Part shown: positions 4,624 to 6,609 of the stretch, in pieces
Position numbering within the stretch: the first letter of the stretch is position 1
Layout of the letters: each line of letters begins with the position of its first letter
Assembly: GCA_949286465.1 (NCBI GenBank)
Contig: CASECI010000003.1
Location: 1 to 63,054 of the forward strand
Direction: 5' to 3'
Length of the DNA stretch: 63,054 nucleotides
DNA from: an uncultured Alphaproteobacteria bacterium
Lineage (GTDB): Bacteria; Pseudomonadota; Alphaproteobacteria; CAAHEQ01; UBA3637
The notes under the pieces: model-generated
Database searches by the model: none
Told to the model about the DNA's origin: nothing
The model's input: the letters and a program-made list of their open reading frames with translations, nothing else
Made by a program: the position numbers and the translations under genes

Positions 4624-6609
4624 ATGAAACAAAATCACAATCGGCAACATGGTCGAACATTATTAGAGATGTTAGGAGTACTCGCAATTATAGGCGTATT
4701 AAGCATAACAGCGTTAGTAGGTTTTACCTATGCGATGAATAAGAACCGAGCAAATACGACAATATACGATGTGATGCTGCGCGGGACGAATGTTCCGATG
4801 ATAGATGAGAACTATTATAGTAAGCCTTCAGGGTATGAGTTTCATTTTGCGGGCTTAGGGGATGGAACATACTATTCCATGTCGACGAAGAAGGATAGCG
4901 GTCGTTCATATTATGTAGAAGTGACGGGAGTCAGCTATCGCGTATGTGAACTCATCTTAAAGATGGAGCCGACGGACATAGACCAGATAGTAGTGAATAA
5001 TTCCGTTTATCAAGGGGACAGTGATATATGCGGAAGCACAGATGGTTTAGCGATGCGGTTCTGTTTTGGAAGTGATGGAACGATATGTAATGGGACAGGA
5101 ACCGGGGGTGGCACTAGTTCCGGTGGTATAGGTTCTGGAGGAGATGGTAGTTCTGGGAGTAGTTCAGGAGGCGGATCAGGTAATCTCTGTTCTGGAAAAG
5201 ATTGTGGTTCGCATGGAACATGTCAAAATGGAGTATGCGTATGTCAAGATGGATATAGTGGAATTGATTGCCGTATACCTCCAATTGACTTATGTCAGAA
5301 TGTAGAATGTGATAATTGTTTTGTTTGCGAATATGGAGAATGTGTTGCGGATACTTCTAATACTGAGTGTAATTGTGAGGATTGGGGAGGTTCCGTTGTA
5401 ACGGTAGCGGGAGGAAGTTGCTGTAATGAGTCTATAGAATGTTGTAAGGTAAATGCAACTGACTGTATGGAGGAGTGCGTTCCTACTGAAGAGAATTGTC
5501 CGACTGACTGCGAAAATATATTAAATCCAGAGAAAAAATGTTCAGATAATTCTGAAGGCTATTGGTCTGTTACAATTAAAGGAAAACCTTCAGGAACTGC
5601 TGACGGCTGTTGTCTGAATTGTATGGGAGAACCCATTCCTCAGGCTTATTGGGATGGCTCTCAAGGAAAGTGTTGTTTGAATCCTGTTTACGAAATTAAA
5701 GGAAAAACAGGAGAGTATTATTGTTGTGAAGAAAAAGATTCGCGACCGTATTATGGAGGAAGTTATACAGGAGTGCAATGTTGTGAGGACAATATAGTAT
5801 TGTCTAGTAAGAGTCCAGAAGAGACTACTTATCAATGTTGTAAGGGGACTGAATACCCTCAATATGAAAATGAAGAATATGGATATTATGCATGTTGTGA
5901 AGGAGAAGTTTATTCAGATCGTTATGGCGGAAAAGCGTGTTGTTGGAATAGTGATAATTACGATCCTTATAATTATAGTGGTGTCAAGCATAATAAATTA
6001 GTTTATCTATTAGATTCTAATAAGAATCAGACAAGTGAGCAAATTTGTTGTCCGACAGAAAAAGTCGAATGGAATAGTGAAACAGGAGAACAAGAGGTTG
6101 TGGAAATTTTAGAACCTTTATTTGGTCATTATGACGGATCGTATAAGTGTTGTGATGGCACGCCATATAAGGGAGGCTACCCTGATCATGTCCACTGTTG
6201 TCCGAAAGGAGGAACTGTTTTTAGAGATGTTGCTCCTTATGGAGGATATAATGCAACAGAGATTTGTTGTGAAGCGGGAACAACTTATTACTCGTACATG
6301 GGAGGATGCGCTGAGAACCCAACAAAAGAAGAGGGAGGTGGAAAATGTTGTCCTATTGGACATAAAGCATCATCCTTTGATGGTTGTTGTGAAAATGAAA
6401 CAGATATTGTAGTTAGCTATACATTTGCACATGGAGGACATTGTGCGGCAGGATACAGTACTGTATGTTGTCCACCGGGGTATTATGGAGGGTCTCAACA
6501 TCGGCAAGGTGGAGGAGTTAATATAATTAAATGTTGTCCTAATGGGGTTGATGAAGAAACTTGTATTAATTCTGATATAGGTATTGTTAAATCATCTGTT
6601 TATGGTTAA
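4624..6609 (+). CDS. Large cysteine-rich protein with a prepilin-type N-terminal leader, a Gly/Ser linker, an EGF-like module and CC-doublet repeats
   Basis: [34 protein letters not shown] has Gly at -1, Glu at +5 and a hydrophobic helix. The G/S-rich linker is at about 5092-5184. [28 protein letters not shown] (5188-5271) has six-Cys EGF spacing. About 17 CC doublets follow. AGAGG lies 8 nt before the ATG. Confidence 0.75.
   Translation: [661 protein letters not shown]

What the first reader, a model, noticed from the sequence alone, without database searches (positions are those of the whole stretch)
4624..6609. A prepilin-type leader fused to about 650 aa of eukaryote-like, cysteine-rich sequence (EGF-like module plus CC-doublet repeats)
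**What the sequence shows**
- The N-terminus [34 protein letters not shown] has the class III signal architecture of type IV pilins and T2SS pseudopilins: a short basic leader, Gly at -1, Glu at +5 and a roughly 20-aa hydrophobic helix.
- Position +1 is Arg, not the usual Phe or Met.
- The mature protein would be several times larger than normal pilins.
- After a roughly 110-aa head-like region there is a Gly/Ser linker at 5092-5184.
- Next comes [28 protein letters not shown] at 5188-5271. This has exact six-Cys EGF spacing and fits C-x-C-x2-[GP]-[FYW]-x4-8-C.
- About 400 aa follow with, by my count, 17 Cys-Cys doublets in a degenerate 15-30-aa repeat (..Y.CC[EPD].G..Y...GG..).
- The gene is a single-gene insert between the eno terminator and yajC-secDF.

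**Inference**
- Bulky minor pilins such as TcpB and CofB are precedents for tip-displayed domains. I know of no described pilin carrying EGF or CC repeats.
- My hypothesis is a pilus- or T2SS-presented adhesin or host-mimicking surface protein family.
Basis: partly seen in the sequence, partly recalled or inferred. Interest (0 to 1): 0.82.

Follow-up and report, generated by a model that had tools for sequence, protein, structure and literature searches.

The report
Modular cysteine-rich type IVb pilin family
This gene is one member of a large, unnamed family in uncultured human-gut Alphaproteobacteria in which a conserved type IVb pilin "handle" is joined by a flexible linker to highly variable disulfide-rich modules, most likely a set of alternative binding modules shown on one pilus machine.

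Summary
ORF 4624-6609 (+) encodes 661 aa: a class III (prepilin) signal with Gly-1, Arg+1 and Glu+5, a Gly/Ser linker, one EGF-like module, and 17 Cys-Cys doublets (about 4 expected by chance).

It is not an isolated oddity. At least 160 unnamed homologues share the first ~160 residues and differ in their Cys-rich C-termini. They occur almost only in about nine uncultured gut alphaproteobacterial MAGs, with 10-20 or more copies each.

- **Pilin module.** The N-module is predicted confidently as a pilin "lollipop"; its best structural matches are type IVb pilins (CofA, TcpA, S. Typhi PilS).
- **Peptidase.** The window encodes an A24 prepilin peptidase at 22797-23567.
- **Machinery.** In three related MAGs a family member directly follows an R64-type PilN-PilO-PilP-ATPase-platform operon.
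- **Selection.** N-modules are under strong purifying selection (dN/dS about 0.07, dS saturated). The CC-repeat end is 96% identical to its orthologue.
- **Module exchange.** N- and C-modules are re-assorted at the linker.
- **Contig ends.** The window is a whole contig, and both ends fall inside further family members.

Best reading: a modular type IVb pilin that displays a binding module. "650 aa eukaryote-like" and "single-gene insert" are overstated. Cleavage, display and ligand are untested. This is a new variant of a known kind.

The parts
4624..6609 (+). Complete family member, 661 aa: modular prepilin
   Evidence: ORF. 163 homologues at E<=1e-3. The orthologue P0001 is 82% identical over the full length. 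Synonymous sites are saturated while the protein is conserved.
4624..4653 (+). Hydrophilic leader peptide, residues 1-10, ending in Gly-1; predicted prepilin-peptidase cleavage after nt 4653
   Evidence: Gly is invariant in the 19-sequence N-module alignment. The G-x4-E motif is found in 107 of 120 homologues. The alignment is in register with PDB pilins. Family leaders are 6 to about 25 aa. Cleavage itself is inferred.
4654..5091 (+). Pilin module, residues 11-156: Arg+1, Glu+5, hydrophobic alpha1N, long alpha1 helix, small beta-sheet head with the conserved Cys108-Cys136 pair
   Evidence: AF2 pLDDT 83, pTM 0.71; helix 11-58 followed by four beta-strands and two short helices. Foldseek top 20 hits are all pilins, 17 of them type IVb: CofA (TM 0.60), TcpA, S. 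Typhi PilS. dN/dS is about 0.07 among 19 paralogous N-modules of one MAG.
5092..5184 (+). Gly/Ser-rich flexible linker, residues 157-187; junction at which homology to other paralogues ends
   Evidence: Read directly from the sequence. A G/S-rich stretch is in the family consensus. Nucleotide similarity to the L001 member stops at window 5139.
5188..5271 (+). EGF-like six-Cys module, residues 189-216
   Evidence: Pfam EGF_2, 21.2 bits against cut-off 22.1. The orthologue passes at 23.7 bits. EGF_2 or EGF_Teneurin is found in 14-15 of 78 members. Weak match to reelin EGF.
5272..5607 (+). Cys-rich region without a family assignment, residues 217-328; carries the first two CC doublets. Most of it (from about residue 240) is shared with a few paralogues
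   Evidence: Local blastp: similarity to P0002, P0003, P0085 and P0086 begins at about residue 240. No Pfam hit.
5608..6606 (+). CC-doublet repeat region, residues 329-661: 15 CC doublets at 13-36 aa spacing, rich in Gly, Tyr and Glu
   Evidence: Residues 501-661 are 96% identical to the orthologue, with dN 0.025 and saturated dS. The AF2 model is all-beta hairpins but low confidence.
4405..4429 (.). Hairpin terminator after eno, separating the gene from the upstream operon
1..213 (-). 5' part of a second family member (QQG|[17 protein letters not shown]...) running off the left end of the contig; start codon not resolved
   Evidence: tblastn E=1.9e-13; translation.
61881..63054 (-). 3' part (>=390 aa, 11.5% Cys) of a third family member, open to the right end of the contig
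   Evidence: Translation. It matches the C-terminal regions of family members P0116 and L058. Cys content.
22797..23567 (+). Prepilin (type IV leader) peptidase, 256 aa, with the ...LLPD... and GGGDVKM motifs
   Evidence: Pfam Peptidase_A24, E=2.9e-14, 53.8 bits against cut-off 26.5. No hit to the N-terminal DiS_P_DiS domain family. Sequence.

Best explanation
The gene encodes a modular type IVb-class pilin.

**Proposed steps (all inferred except where noted)**
1. The precursor inserts into the inner membrane through its class III signal.
2. The A24 peptidase encoded at 22797-23567 cuts after Gly10. This leaves Arg+1...Glu+5 at the start of a ~48-residue alpha1 helix.
3. The ~145-residue pilin module docks into a filament or short pseudopilus. 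That filament is built by an R64-type PilN (secretin), PilO, PilP, ATPase and platform machine.
4. Because of its bulk, the protein probably sits at the tip or is incorporated only sparsely.
5. The Gly/Ser linker holds out a disulfide-bonded rod: one EGF-like module, Cys knots and about 15 CC-pinned beta-hairpins. This rod acts as a stable ligand-binding (adhesin) module in the gut.

**Family-level reading**
- The genome carries many such genes with the same handle and different Cys-rich heads.
- The heads evolve by duplication and by exchange of C-modules at the linker.
- This gives an array of alternative surface specificities served by one machine.

**Status of each claim**
- Shown here: the motif, the predicted fold, the peptidase gene, operon synteny in relatives, family size, the selection pattern and the mosaic structure.
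- Not shown: cleavage, filament incorporation, position in the filament, the disulfide pattern and the ligand.
For: **Signal and fold**
- Gly-1 and Glu+5 are invariant in the 19-sequence alignment; Arg+1 occurs in 106 of the 107 homologues in which the leader motif was found.
- The N-module profile hits only pilins in PDB sequences, in register.
- The AF2 model has pLDDT 83. All 20 best Foldseek hits are pilins, 17 of them type IVb (CofA, TcpA, S. Typhi PilS).

**Machinery**
- Peptidase_A24 lies on the same contig.
- In L081/L027 the order is TcpQ-family protein, secretin (PilN family, TIGR02520, E=8.9e-80), PAP_PilO (E=8.7e-27), PilP (TIGR03021, above cut-off), T2SSE (E=2e-67), T2SSF, then a family member.
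- The same order recurs in two other MAGs, L062 and L066.
- Pilin-sized members (149-233 aa) with the same leader and head exist; some may be truncated gene calls. They are candidates for the major pilin.

**Selection and evolution**
- N-modules of 19 paralogues in one MAG have dN 0.10, dS about 1.1 and a ratio of about 0.07.
- The C-terminal CC repeats are 96% identical to the orthologue's despite saturated dS.
- The window's N-module is 90% (nt) and 92% (aa) identical to that of L001, but homology stops in the linker and the C-modules are unrelated.

**Precedent**
- Modular pilins and PilV adhesins are described (PMC8179133; PMC9045228).
Against: - Arg at +1 is unprecedented to my knowledge. 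A charged residue at the start of the buried alpha1N may hinder normal filament packing or methylation.
- The window protein itself scores just below the curated cut-offs for N_methyl and EGF_2.
- No assembly ATPase, platform or secretin lies in this 63-kb contig, so the machinery is shown only in related MAGs.
- Dozens of bulky subunits per genome is far more than any known pilus uses.
- No Dsb-type oxidoreductase motif was seen in the window.
- The C-terminal structure prediction is unreliable (pLDDT 53).
- There is no expression, localisation or binding evidence.
Confidence: 0.6

Rival explanations
1. Surface or periplasmic display that depends on the class III signal but involves no true pilus. 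The proteins are processed by the prepilin peptidase. The type IVb-like machine then places them on or through the envelope as single units or on a very short pseudopilus, forming a Cys-rich coat. This would work like the Sulfolobus bindosome or a T2SS pseudopilus.
For: - There are very many bulky paralogues per genome, which is hard to fit into one filament.
- Arg+1 is atypical for subunits buried in a filament core.
- The bindosome precedent, non-pilin proteins with class III signals handled by a type IV filament system, is described in PMC4471445.
Against: - The N-module is a full pilin fold, not just a signal.
- It is under strong purifying selection over all ~150 residues.
- Glu+5, needed for polymerisation in studied systems (PMC4471445), is invariant.
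- A secretin of the PilN type IVb family is present.
Confidence: 0.2
2. An uncleaved N-terminal membrane anchor. The hydrophobic helix simply tethers a periplasmic, disulfide-rich protein to the inner membrane, and the pilin-like motif is vestigial.
For: - Pfam and NCBIfam scores for the motif are below the curated cut-offs in the window protein.
- Arg+1 replaces the usual hydrophobic residue.
Against: - Gly-1 and Glu+5 are invariant in the alignment of diverse members, and the motif is present in all but the truncated homologues.
- The orthologue passes the N_methyl cut-off.
- A prepilin peptidase is on the same contig.
- Synteny with pilus assembly genes is conserved in three MAGs.
- The fold is pilin-like.
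Confidence: 0.07
3. Host-ligand mimicry. The EGF-like and other metazoan-type modules were acquired from eukaryotes and engage host receptors of the EGFR, Notch or Wnt type, so the family signals rather than adheres.
For: - Family members carry EGF_2, EGF_Teneurin, Dumpy_DPY, EB, Dickkopf_N and a TNFR-like match.
- A congeneric MAG has ankyrin-repeat genes next to a family member.
Against: - In this protein only ~30 aa are EGF-like, at borderline score.
- The CC-repeat bulk has no eukaryotic or PDB relative.
- Short Cys-rich Pfam matches can reflect convergent disulfide spacing.
- No receptor-binding residues could be assessed.
Confidence: 0.1
4. The protein is the major subunit of an unusually thick filament in which every subunit carries the 500-aa extension.
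For: A family member occupies the slot directly after the platform gene, where R64 has its major pilin PilS.
Against: - Pilin-sized family members exist.
- There are dozens of different long paralogues per genome.
- A 500-aa rod on every subunit poses a steric problem (inference).
Confidence: 0.03

Closest known systems
Modular type IV pilins (S. sanguinis PilB with a vWA module, PilC with a lectin module; Raynaud et al. 2021, PMC8179133)
   Same: A small N-terminal pilin module with a class III signal is joined by a short linker to a bulky functional module presented by the filament. That paper reports more than 1,200 such proteins in 264 architectures.
   Different: - Here there are 10-20 or more paralogues per genome rather than one or two.
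- The modules are disulfide-rich repeats (EGF-like, CC-doublet, DUF7107 and others).
- No EGF or Cys-rich term was found in the held supplementary text of that paper.
- Arg is at +1, the host is a diderm, and the machine is type IVb R64-like.
PilV adhesins of the R64/TP114 conjugative type IVb thin pilus, with the PilN-O-P-Q-R-S operon
   Same: - The same kind of machine: PilN-family secretin, PAP_PilO, PilP, ATPase and platform, followed by a pilin gene.
- A constant pilin N-part with alternative C-terminal binding domains that change specificity (PMC9045228).
   Different: - In R64 and TP114, variation comes from one gene plus a shufflon inverted by a recombinase. Here it comes from many complete genes scattered on the chromosome.
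- No shufflon-type repeats are present in the window.
- The C-modules are unrelated to PilV and are Cys-rich.
- There is no evidence of a role in conjugation, although a TrbC gene lies beside the operon in L081.
Tip minor pilins CofB and TcpB of type IVb pili
   Same: A type IVb pilin domain plus a flexible linker plus extra beta-rich domains, proposed to sit at the pilus tip (discussed in PMC8179133). The structural hits of the N-module are to the CofA and TcpA systems.
   Different: - CofB and TcpB are single-copy initiator pilins.
- No sequence similarity was detected.
- They are not Cys-rich.
Sulfolobus bindosome (sugar-binding proteins with class III signal peptides)
   Same: Functional non-filament domains are fused to a class III signal, and several different cargo proteins are served by one type IV filament-like system (PMC4471445).
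   Different: The bindosome is archaeal, has no full pilin head domain, has different cargo, and has far fewer members.
Expansions of prepilin-type N-terminal proteins in Planctomycetota, Verrucomicrobiota and Elusimicrobiota (from my own knowledge, not tested here)
   Same: Tens to hundreds of paralogues per genome carry a class III-type N-terminus, with unknown function.
   Different: Those have the canonical Phe+1, different C-terminal domains (for example DUF1559), and are not disulfide-rich modular arrays.
Granulin and other CC-doublet beta-hairpin stacks; Giardia variant surface proteins (analogy only, from my own knowledge)
   Same: Repeated CC doublets suggest a ladder of disulfide-pinned hairpins. 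A large family of Cys-rich, variable surface proteins in a gut organism is a shared theme.
   Different: - No Pfam hit to any family other than EGF_2 and N_methyl, so none to granulin or Giardia VSP families.
- The repeat spacing is irregular.
- The anchor differs: an N-terminal pilin module against a C-terminal transmembrane segment.

Membership tests
Type IV pilin / type IV filament subunit (class III signal peptide protein) | Hydrophilic leader of 6-26 aa ending in Gly (-1) | tested here: met
   10-aa leader [10 protein letters not shown]. Gly is invariant in the 19-sequence alignment, and the leader motif is present in 107 of 120 homologues. Family leaders are 6 to about 25 aa. Definition from PMC4471445.
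Type IV pilin / type IV filament subunit (class III signal peptide protein) | About 21 mostly hydrophobic residues after the cleavage site, interrupted by Glu at +5 | tested here: met
   [24 protein letters not shown]. Glu+5 is invariant. The alignment is in register with PDB pilins.
Type IV pilin / type IV filament subunit (class III signal peptide protein) | Curated HMM (Pfam N_methyl PF07963, TIGR02532) at or above its cut-off | tested here: inconclusive
   Window protein: 19.5 against 21.2 bits and 14.7 against 16.3 bits. Orthologue P0001: 22.8 bits, which passes. 11 of 78 members match at E<=1e-3.
Type IV pilin / type IV filament subunit (class III signal peptide protein) | Pilin fold: ~50-residue alpha1 packed on an antiparallel beta-sheet head | tested here: met
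   Predicted only. AF2 pLDDT 83 with helix 11-58 plus four beta-strands. Foldseek top 20 hits are all pilins, probability up to 1.0 and TM up to 0.60.
Type IV pilin / type IV filament subunit (class III signal peptide protein) | Hydrophobic residue at +1 (Phe, Met, Leu, Trp and similar), often N-methylated | tested here: not met
   Arg at +1 in 106 of 107 homologues, Lys in one, Trp in one locus. The window peptidase has no hit to the DiS_P_DiS domain family.
Type IV pilin / type IV filament subunit (class III signal peptide protein) | Dedicated prepilin peptidase in the same genome | tested here: met
   Window 22797-23567: Peptidase_A24, 53.8 bits against cut-off 26.5.
Type IV pilin / type IV filament subunit (class III signal peptide protein) | Assembly ATPase, platform protein and secretin in the same genome | tested here: inconclusive
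   None in the 63-kb window. They are present directly upstream of family members in three related MAGs. The rest of this genome was not available.
Type IV pilin / type IV filament subunit (class III signal peptide protein) | Cleavage after Gly-1 and incorporation into a filament | not testable with these tools
   Needs proteomics, genetics or microscopy.
Type IVb pilin subclass with an R64-type machine | Structural resemblance to type IVb rather than type IVa pilins; non-Phe +1; variable, often long leader | tested here: met
   The best hits are CofA, TcpA and S. Typhi PilS. Position +1 is Arg. Some paralogues have 22-25-aa leaders.
Type IVb pilin subclass with an R64-type machine | Operon with PilN-family secretin, PilO and PilP accessory proteins, ATPase and platform next to the pilin gene | tested here: met
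   Shown in relatives only. TIGR02520 E=8.9e-80 (268.7 bits, cut-off 287.65); PF06864 E=8.7e-27; TIGR03021 57.2 bits against cut-off 34.65; T2SSE; T2SSF. Conserved in L027/L081, L062 and L066.
Modular pilin (sensu Raynaud et al. 2021) | N-terminal pilin module linked by a short linker to an additional domain not specific to pilus biology | tested here: met
   Pilin module 11-156, Gly/Ser linker 157-187, EGF-like module plus Cys-rich repeats 189-661.
EGF-like domain | Six Cys with EGF spacing; curated HMM at or above its cut-off | tested here: inconclusive
   EGF_2 scores 21.2 against 22.1 bits in the window protein. The orthologue scores 23.7. Paralogue P0052 passes EGF_Teneurin at 25.6 against 24.3 bits. 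The spacing fits the C-x-C-x2-[GP]-[FYW]-x4-8-C pattern by eye.
R64/IncI PilV shufflon adhesin | Alternative C-terminal segments flanked by inverted sfx repeats and a shufflon recombinase | tested here: not met
   No such repeats around the gene or elsewhere in the window. Variation is carried by separate full-length genes.
T2SS pseudopilin (GspG-K) | Equivalog HMM scores and a gsp operon context | tested here: not met
   GspH scores 15.7 against 80 and GspG 12.8 against 88.85, with only the N-terminal helix matching. The context in relatives is PilN/PilO/PilP, not gsp.
Granulin | Twelve-Cys motif with four CC doublets; Pfam PF00396 | tested here: not met
   Not among the Pfam matches at E<=10, which were only EGF_2 and N_methyl. 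The CC spacing is irregular, 13-36 aa.

The most novel reading that the evidence does not exclude
Uncultured anaerobic gut Alphaproteobacteria run a "pilin library". One R64-type type IVb machine and one peptidase serve 20 or more chromosomal modular pilins per genome. All carry an Arg+1 handle. Their metazoan-style disulfide-rich heads are exchanged at a Gly/Ser linker and differ between strains. This would be a bacterial counterpart of variant surface protein or adhesin repertoires, possibly aimed at host or protist surfaces. It would also be a gene-family alternative to the shufflon.
Probability: 0.35. Interest if true: 0.8.

Novelty: new variant of a known kind. Interest (0 to 1): 0.66.

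Why it matters
- **Scale of modular pilins.** It would show that grafting a module onto a pilin can be scaled up into a large, recombining gene family.
- **A second route to variable tips.** It would give another way, besides the IncI shufflon, to vary what a type IVb pilus displays.
- **A handle on an unstudied lineage.** These gut Alphaproteobacteria are uncultured, and several of the MAG labels point to non-industrialised cohorts (Hadza, BRZ). The family offers a concrete starting point for asking what their surface recognises.
- **A test of the +1 rule.** The invariant Arg+1 is a natural experiment on what residue +1 does in prepilin processing and filament packing.
- **Practical points.** The conserved N-module is a specific marker of the lineage: only 271 cluster representatives among 1.84 billion match it. 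It also explains why assemblies of these genomes break.
- **Protein scaffolds.** The CC-repeat rods are a new, strongly conserved disulfide-rich scaffold with no solved relative.

Tried and rejected
**Tried without useful result**
- AF2 of the C-terminal 476 aa with a 6-sequence alignment gave pLDDT 53 and pTM 0.34. That is too poor for a fold search or disulfide mapping.
- A homologue search with residues 252-661 alone returned only the orthologue P0001.
- A PDB sequence search of residues 186-661 gave only a weak reelin-EGF match, E=0.13.
- Looking up the window protein in the contig index found no record. Cluster membership later showed that the window is a whole 63,054-bp NCBI contig.
- A simple thioredoxin-motif scan found no DsbA or DsbC candidate in the window. 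This says nothing about the rest of the genome.
- The promoter scan was at background level.
- Five literature searches found no description of this family.

**Considered and rejected**
- Shufflon or other DNA repeats near the gene: only chance-level repeats were found.
- T2SS pseudopilin identity: scores are far below cut-offs.
- Gene conversion as the reason for N-module conservation: synonymous sites are saturated.
- Recent horizontal "insert": linkage to yajC is conserved in the orthologue.
- Multi-stretch hits in the representative search, such as P0185. These are Gram-positive-type repeat proteins and were judged to be compositional matches.
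Full report
**1. The observation**

ORF 4624-6609 (+) is real: 661 aa with an ATG start, preceded by the eno hairpin terminator (4405-4429) and followed by yajC-secD-secF. The N-terminus reads [34 protein letters not shown].

- Pfam N_methyl matches residues 6-30 (E=7.1e-4, 19.5 bits, gathering score 21.2).
- EGF_2 matches residues 189-216 (E=3.8e-4, 21.2 bits, cut-off 22.1).
- NCBIfam's prepilin-type domain scores 14.7 against a cut-off of 16.3.

Taken alone these are borderline. The protein has 60 Cys and 17 CC doublets. Shuffling residues 256-661 gives 4.0 +/- 1.6 doublets and never more than 11 in 20,000 trials. The Gly/Ser linker (nt 5092-5184) and the EGF-like module (nt 5188-5271) are at the stated coordinates.

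**2. It is a family, and the family settles the borderline scores**

A search of 5.8 billion proteins returned 163 homologues, none named by any source.

- Almost all share only the first ~160 residues with the query. Their C-termini are different Cys-rich sequences.
- The leader motif G|R[ST][ML][LI]EML was found in 107 of the 120 listed proteins, with Arg at +1 in 106 and Lys in one. The other 13 are mostly 5'-truncated gene calls.
- In an alignment of 19 diverse members, Gly-1 and Glu+5 are invariant.
- The orthologue P0001 (82% identity over the full length) passes the curated cut-offs of both N_methyl (22.8 bits) and EGF_2 (23.7 bits).
- Among 78 members, Pfam finds EGF_Teneurin (15), EGF_2 (14), DUF7107 (13), Dumpy_DPY (3), EGF_TEN (3), EB (2) and Dickkopf_N (1).
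- A Gly/Ser-rich linker after the N-module is part of the family consensus.

**3. The N-module is a pilin module of the type IVb kind**

- A profile of the N-module hits only type IV pilins among PDB sequences, aligned in register (KG|FTLIEL against kG|rsmiEmL).
- AlphaFold2 on the 19-sequence alignment gives a confident model: pLDDT 83, pTM 0.71. It has a helix at residues 11-58, then four beta-strands and two short helices.
- All 20 best Foldseek matches in the PDB are pilins, and 17 of them are type IVb: ETEC CofA (TM 0.60), V. cholerae TcpA and S. Typhi PilS. The other three are C. difficile PilA1.
- E-values are modest (1.6e-3 and up) and sequence identity is 8-15%, so this is a fold-level statement.
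- A head-only profile without the hydrophobic helix finds just 271 cluster representatives at E<=1e-3, and 92 at E<=1e-10, among 1.84 billion.
- These include pilin-sized members of 149-233 aa with the same leader, some of which may be truncated gene calls. They are candidates for the major pilin.

**4. Peptidase and machinery**

- The window encodes an A24 prepilin peptidase at 22797-23567 (53.8 bits, cut-off 26.5). It carries the LLPD and GGGDVKM motifs and has no hit to the N-terminal domain family found in methylating peptidases.
- No assembly ATPase, platform or secretin is in the window.
- In a related MAG (L027/L081) a family member directly follows this gene order: TcpQ-family protein, secretin, PAP_PilO, PilP, T2SSE ATPase, T2SSF platform. 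Scores are TIGR02520 (PilN type IVB family) E=8.9e-80, PAP_PilO E=8.7e-27, TIGR03021 (PilP) above its cut-off, and T2SSE E=2e-67.
- The same order, ending in a family member, recurs in two other MAGs, L062 and L066.
- This is the gene order of the R64/IncI thin-pilus cluster (PilN-O-P-Q-R-S). I rely on my own knowledge of R64 for that comparison; PMC9045228 describes the PilS and PilV pilins.

**5. Distribution and genome behaviour**

- A scan of one genome per species (185,579 species) found 88 loci. The 80 kept come from ten MAGs: nine titled Alphaproteobacteria, all apparently from gut samples, and one contig in a bin titled Butyrivibrio, which may be mis-binned.
- My count per MAG is at least 20, 17, 13, 11 and 10 copies in the five richest.
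- 37 of 86 N-module matches are cut by a contig end.
- The window itself is a complete 63,054-bp contig.
- Its left end lies in the 5' part of a second member (about 213 to 1, minus strand). Its right end lies in the Cys-rich 3' part of a third (61881-63054, minus strand).

**6. Selection and mosaicism**

- Among 19 N-modules of one MAG, dN is 0.10 and dS about 1.1, saturated in a third of pairs. The ratio is about 0.07.
- The conservation is therefore protein-level constraint on old paralogues, not recent gene conversion.
- Between the window gene and its orthologue, synonymous sites are saturated while residues 501-661 are 96% identical (dN 0.025).
- The CC-repeat rod is therefore a constrained, functional domain.
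- The window's N-module is 90% (nt) and 92% (aa) identical to that of L001 in a congeneric MAG. That is higher than the 84% seen over tpiA-eno. The similarity ends inside the linker (window 5139), and the C-modules are unrelated.
- In the same MAG, eno is followed by yet another member and then by ankyrin-repeat genes.
- The orthologue by C-module sits between a suf operon and yajC.
- Handles and heads have therefore been re-assorted, and synteny breaks at these genes. The gene is not a simple recent insert.

**7. Mechanism**

The mechanism is inferred from the anatomy in sections 1-6 and is set out step by step in the best explanation: cleavage by the A24 peptidase after Gly10, docking of the pilin module into a type IVb filament or pseudopilus, and display of the Cys-rich C-module through the flexible linker. 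The regular CC doublets suggest a ladder of disulfide-pinned beta-hairpins; the AF2 model is all-beta but unreliable. A protease-resistant binding module fits the gut setting. No step of processing, display or binding has been shown.

The main rival is a bindosome- or pseudopilus-like display without long filaments (PMC4471445). The sheer number of bulky paralogues and the charged +1 residue make it attractive. An uncleaved anchor is unlikely given the invariant Gly-1 and Glu+5, the peptidase, the fold and the synteny.

**8. Comparison with what is known, and novelty**

[quoted passage not shown] PilV adhesins with interchangeable C-termini are known from IncI plasmids (PMC9045228).

What is new here:
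- the scale, with tens of full-length genes per genome;
- the invariant Arg+1;
- the disulfide-rich, metazoan-style module repertoire, including an unassigned CC-repeat scaffold;
- module exchange at a linker instead of a shufflon;
- the host lineage.

No paper describing the family was found in five searches. I rate it a new variant of a known kind, with moderately high interest.

Noticed in passing
window 1-213 (-) and 61881-63054 (-): Both ends of the window, which is a whole 63,054-bp contig, fall inside further members of the same family. In related MAGs, 37 of 86 N-module matches are cut by contig ends. The family appears to break assemblies systematically.
   Followed up: yes
window 22797-23567 (+): A stand-alone A24 prepilin peptidase lies between gpmI and a RodZ-like gene followed by prfA. 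It has no detectable N-terminal methyltransferase-associated domain, which may relate to the non-canonical Arg+1.
   Followed up: partly
window 33017-33712 (+); L081 226-579 (-): A TraX-family protein (F-pilin acetylase family, E=2.1e-25) is in the window. A TrbC (conjugative pilin family) gene lies beside the type IVb operon in L081. Both hint at a conjugative or type IV secretion system in this lineage.
   Followed up: no
L013 6433-7380 and 7461-8303 (+): Two ankyrin-repeat proteins (Ank_2, E about 1e-17) lie directly downstream of the family member that follows eno in a congeneric MAG. This is a possible sign of interaction with eukaryotic cells.
   Followed up: partly
L081 12706-14418 (-) and 14431-15216 (-); also L004: A 570-aa protein with a different pilin-like N-terminus (…QEQG|SLMVEVLAVLGLIAL…, Glu+5) and a 261-aa partner are conserved at 94-96% identity in a second MAG. 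Neither has a Pfam or NCBIfam hit. They may be further minor pilins.
   Followed up: no
L081 11373-11738 (+); similar ORFs in L028, L019, L048, L006 and L012: A small Sec-signal protein (~121 aa, several Cys, WWSASNWC motif) recurs next to family members in several loci. It has no Pfam hit.
   Followed up: no
window 14118-15074 and 15081-16175 (+), 16463-17170 (+), 30677-31852 (+): By eye, an anaerobic ribonucleotide reductase appears split into two adjacent ORFs, next to its activase. A flavodiiron-type protein is also present. Together they suggest an anaerobic lifestyle. The split could be a frameshift or a sequencing error.
   Followed up: no
window 46807-52613: A cluster of apparent glycosyltransferase-like genes, including two paralogous ~355-aa proteins (47886-48950 and 51534-52613). 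It is probably involved in surface polysaccharide synthesis.
   Followed up: no
L035 199-3183 and 3402-3977 (+): A 994-aa member and a 191-aa pilin-sized member lie in tandem. The short one is a candidate major pilin.
   Followed up: partly
L059 5964, L060 5964, L077 6022: Some family copies are truncated to 42-49 aa after the leader. They are probable pseudogenes or frameshifted copies.
   Followed up: no
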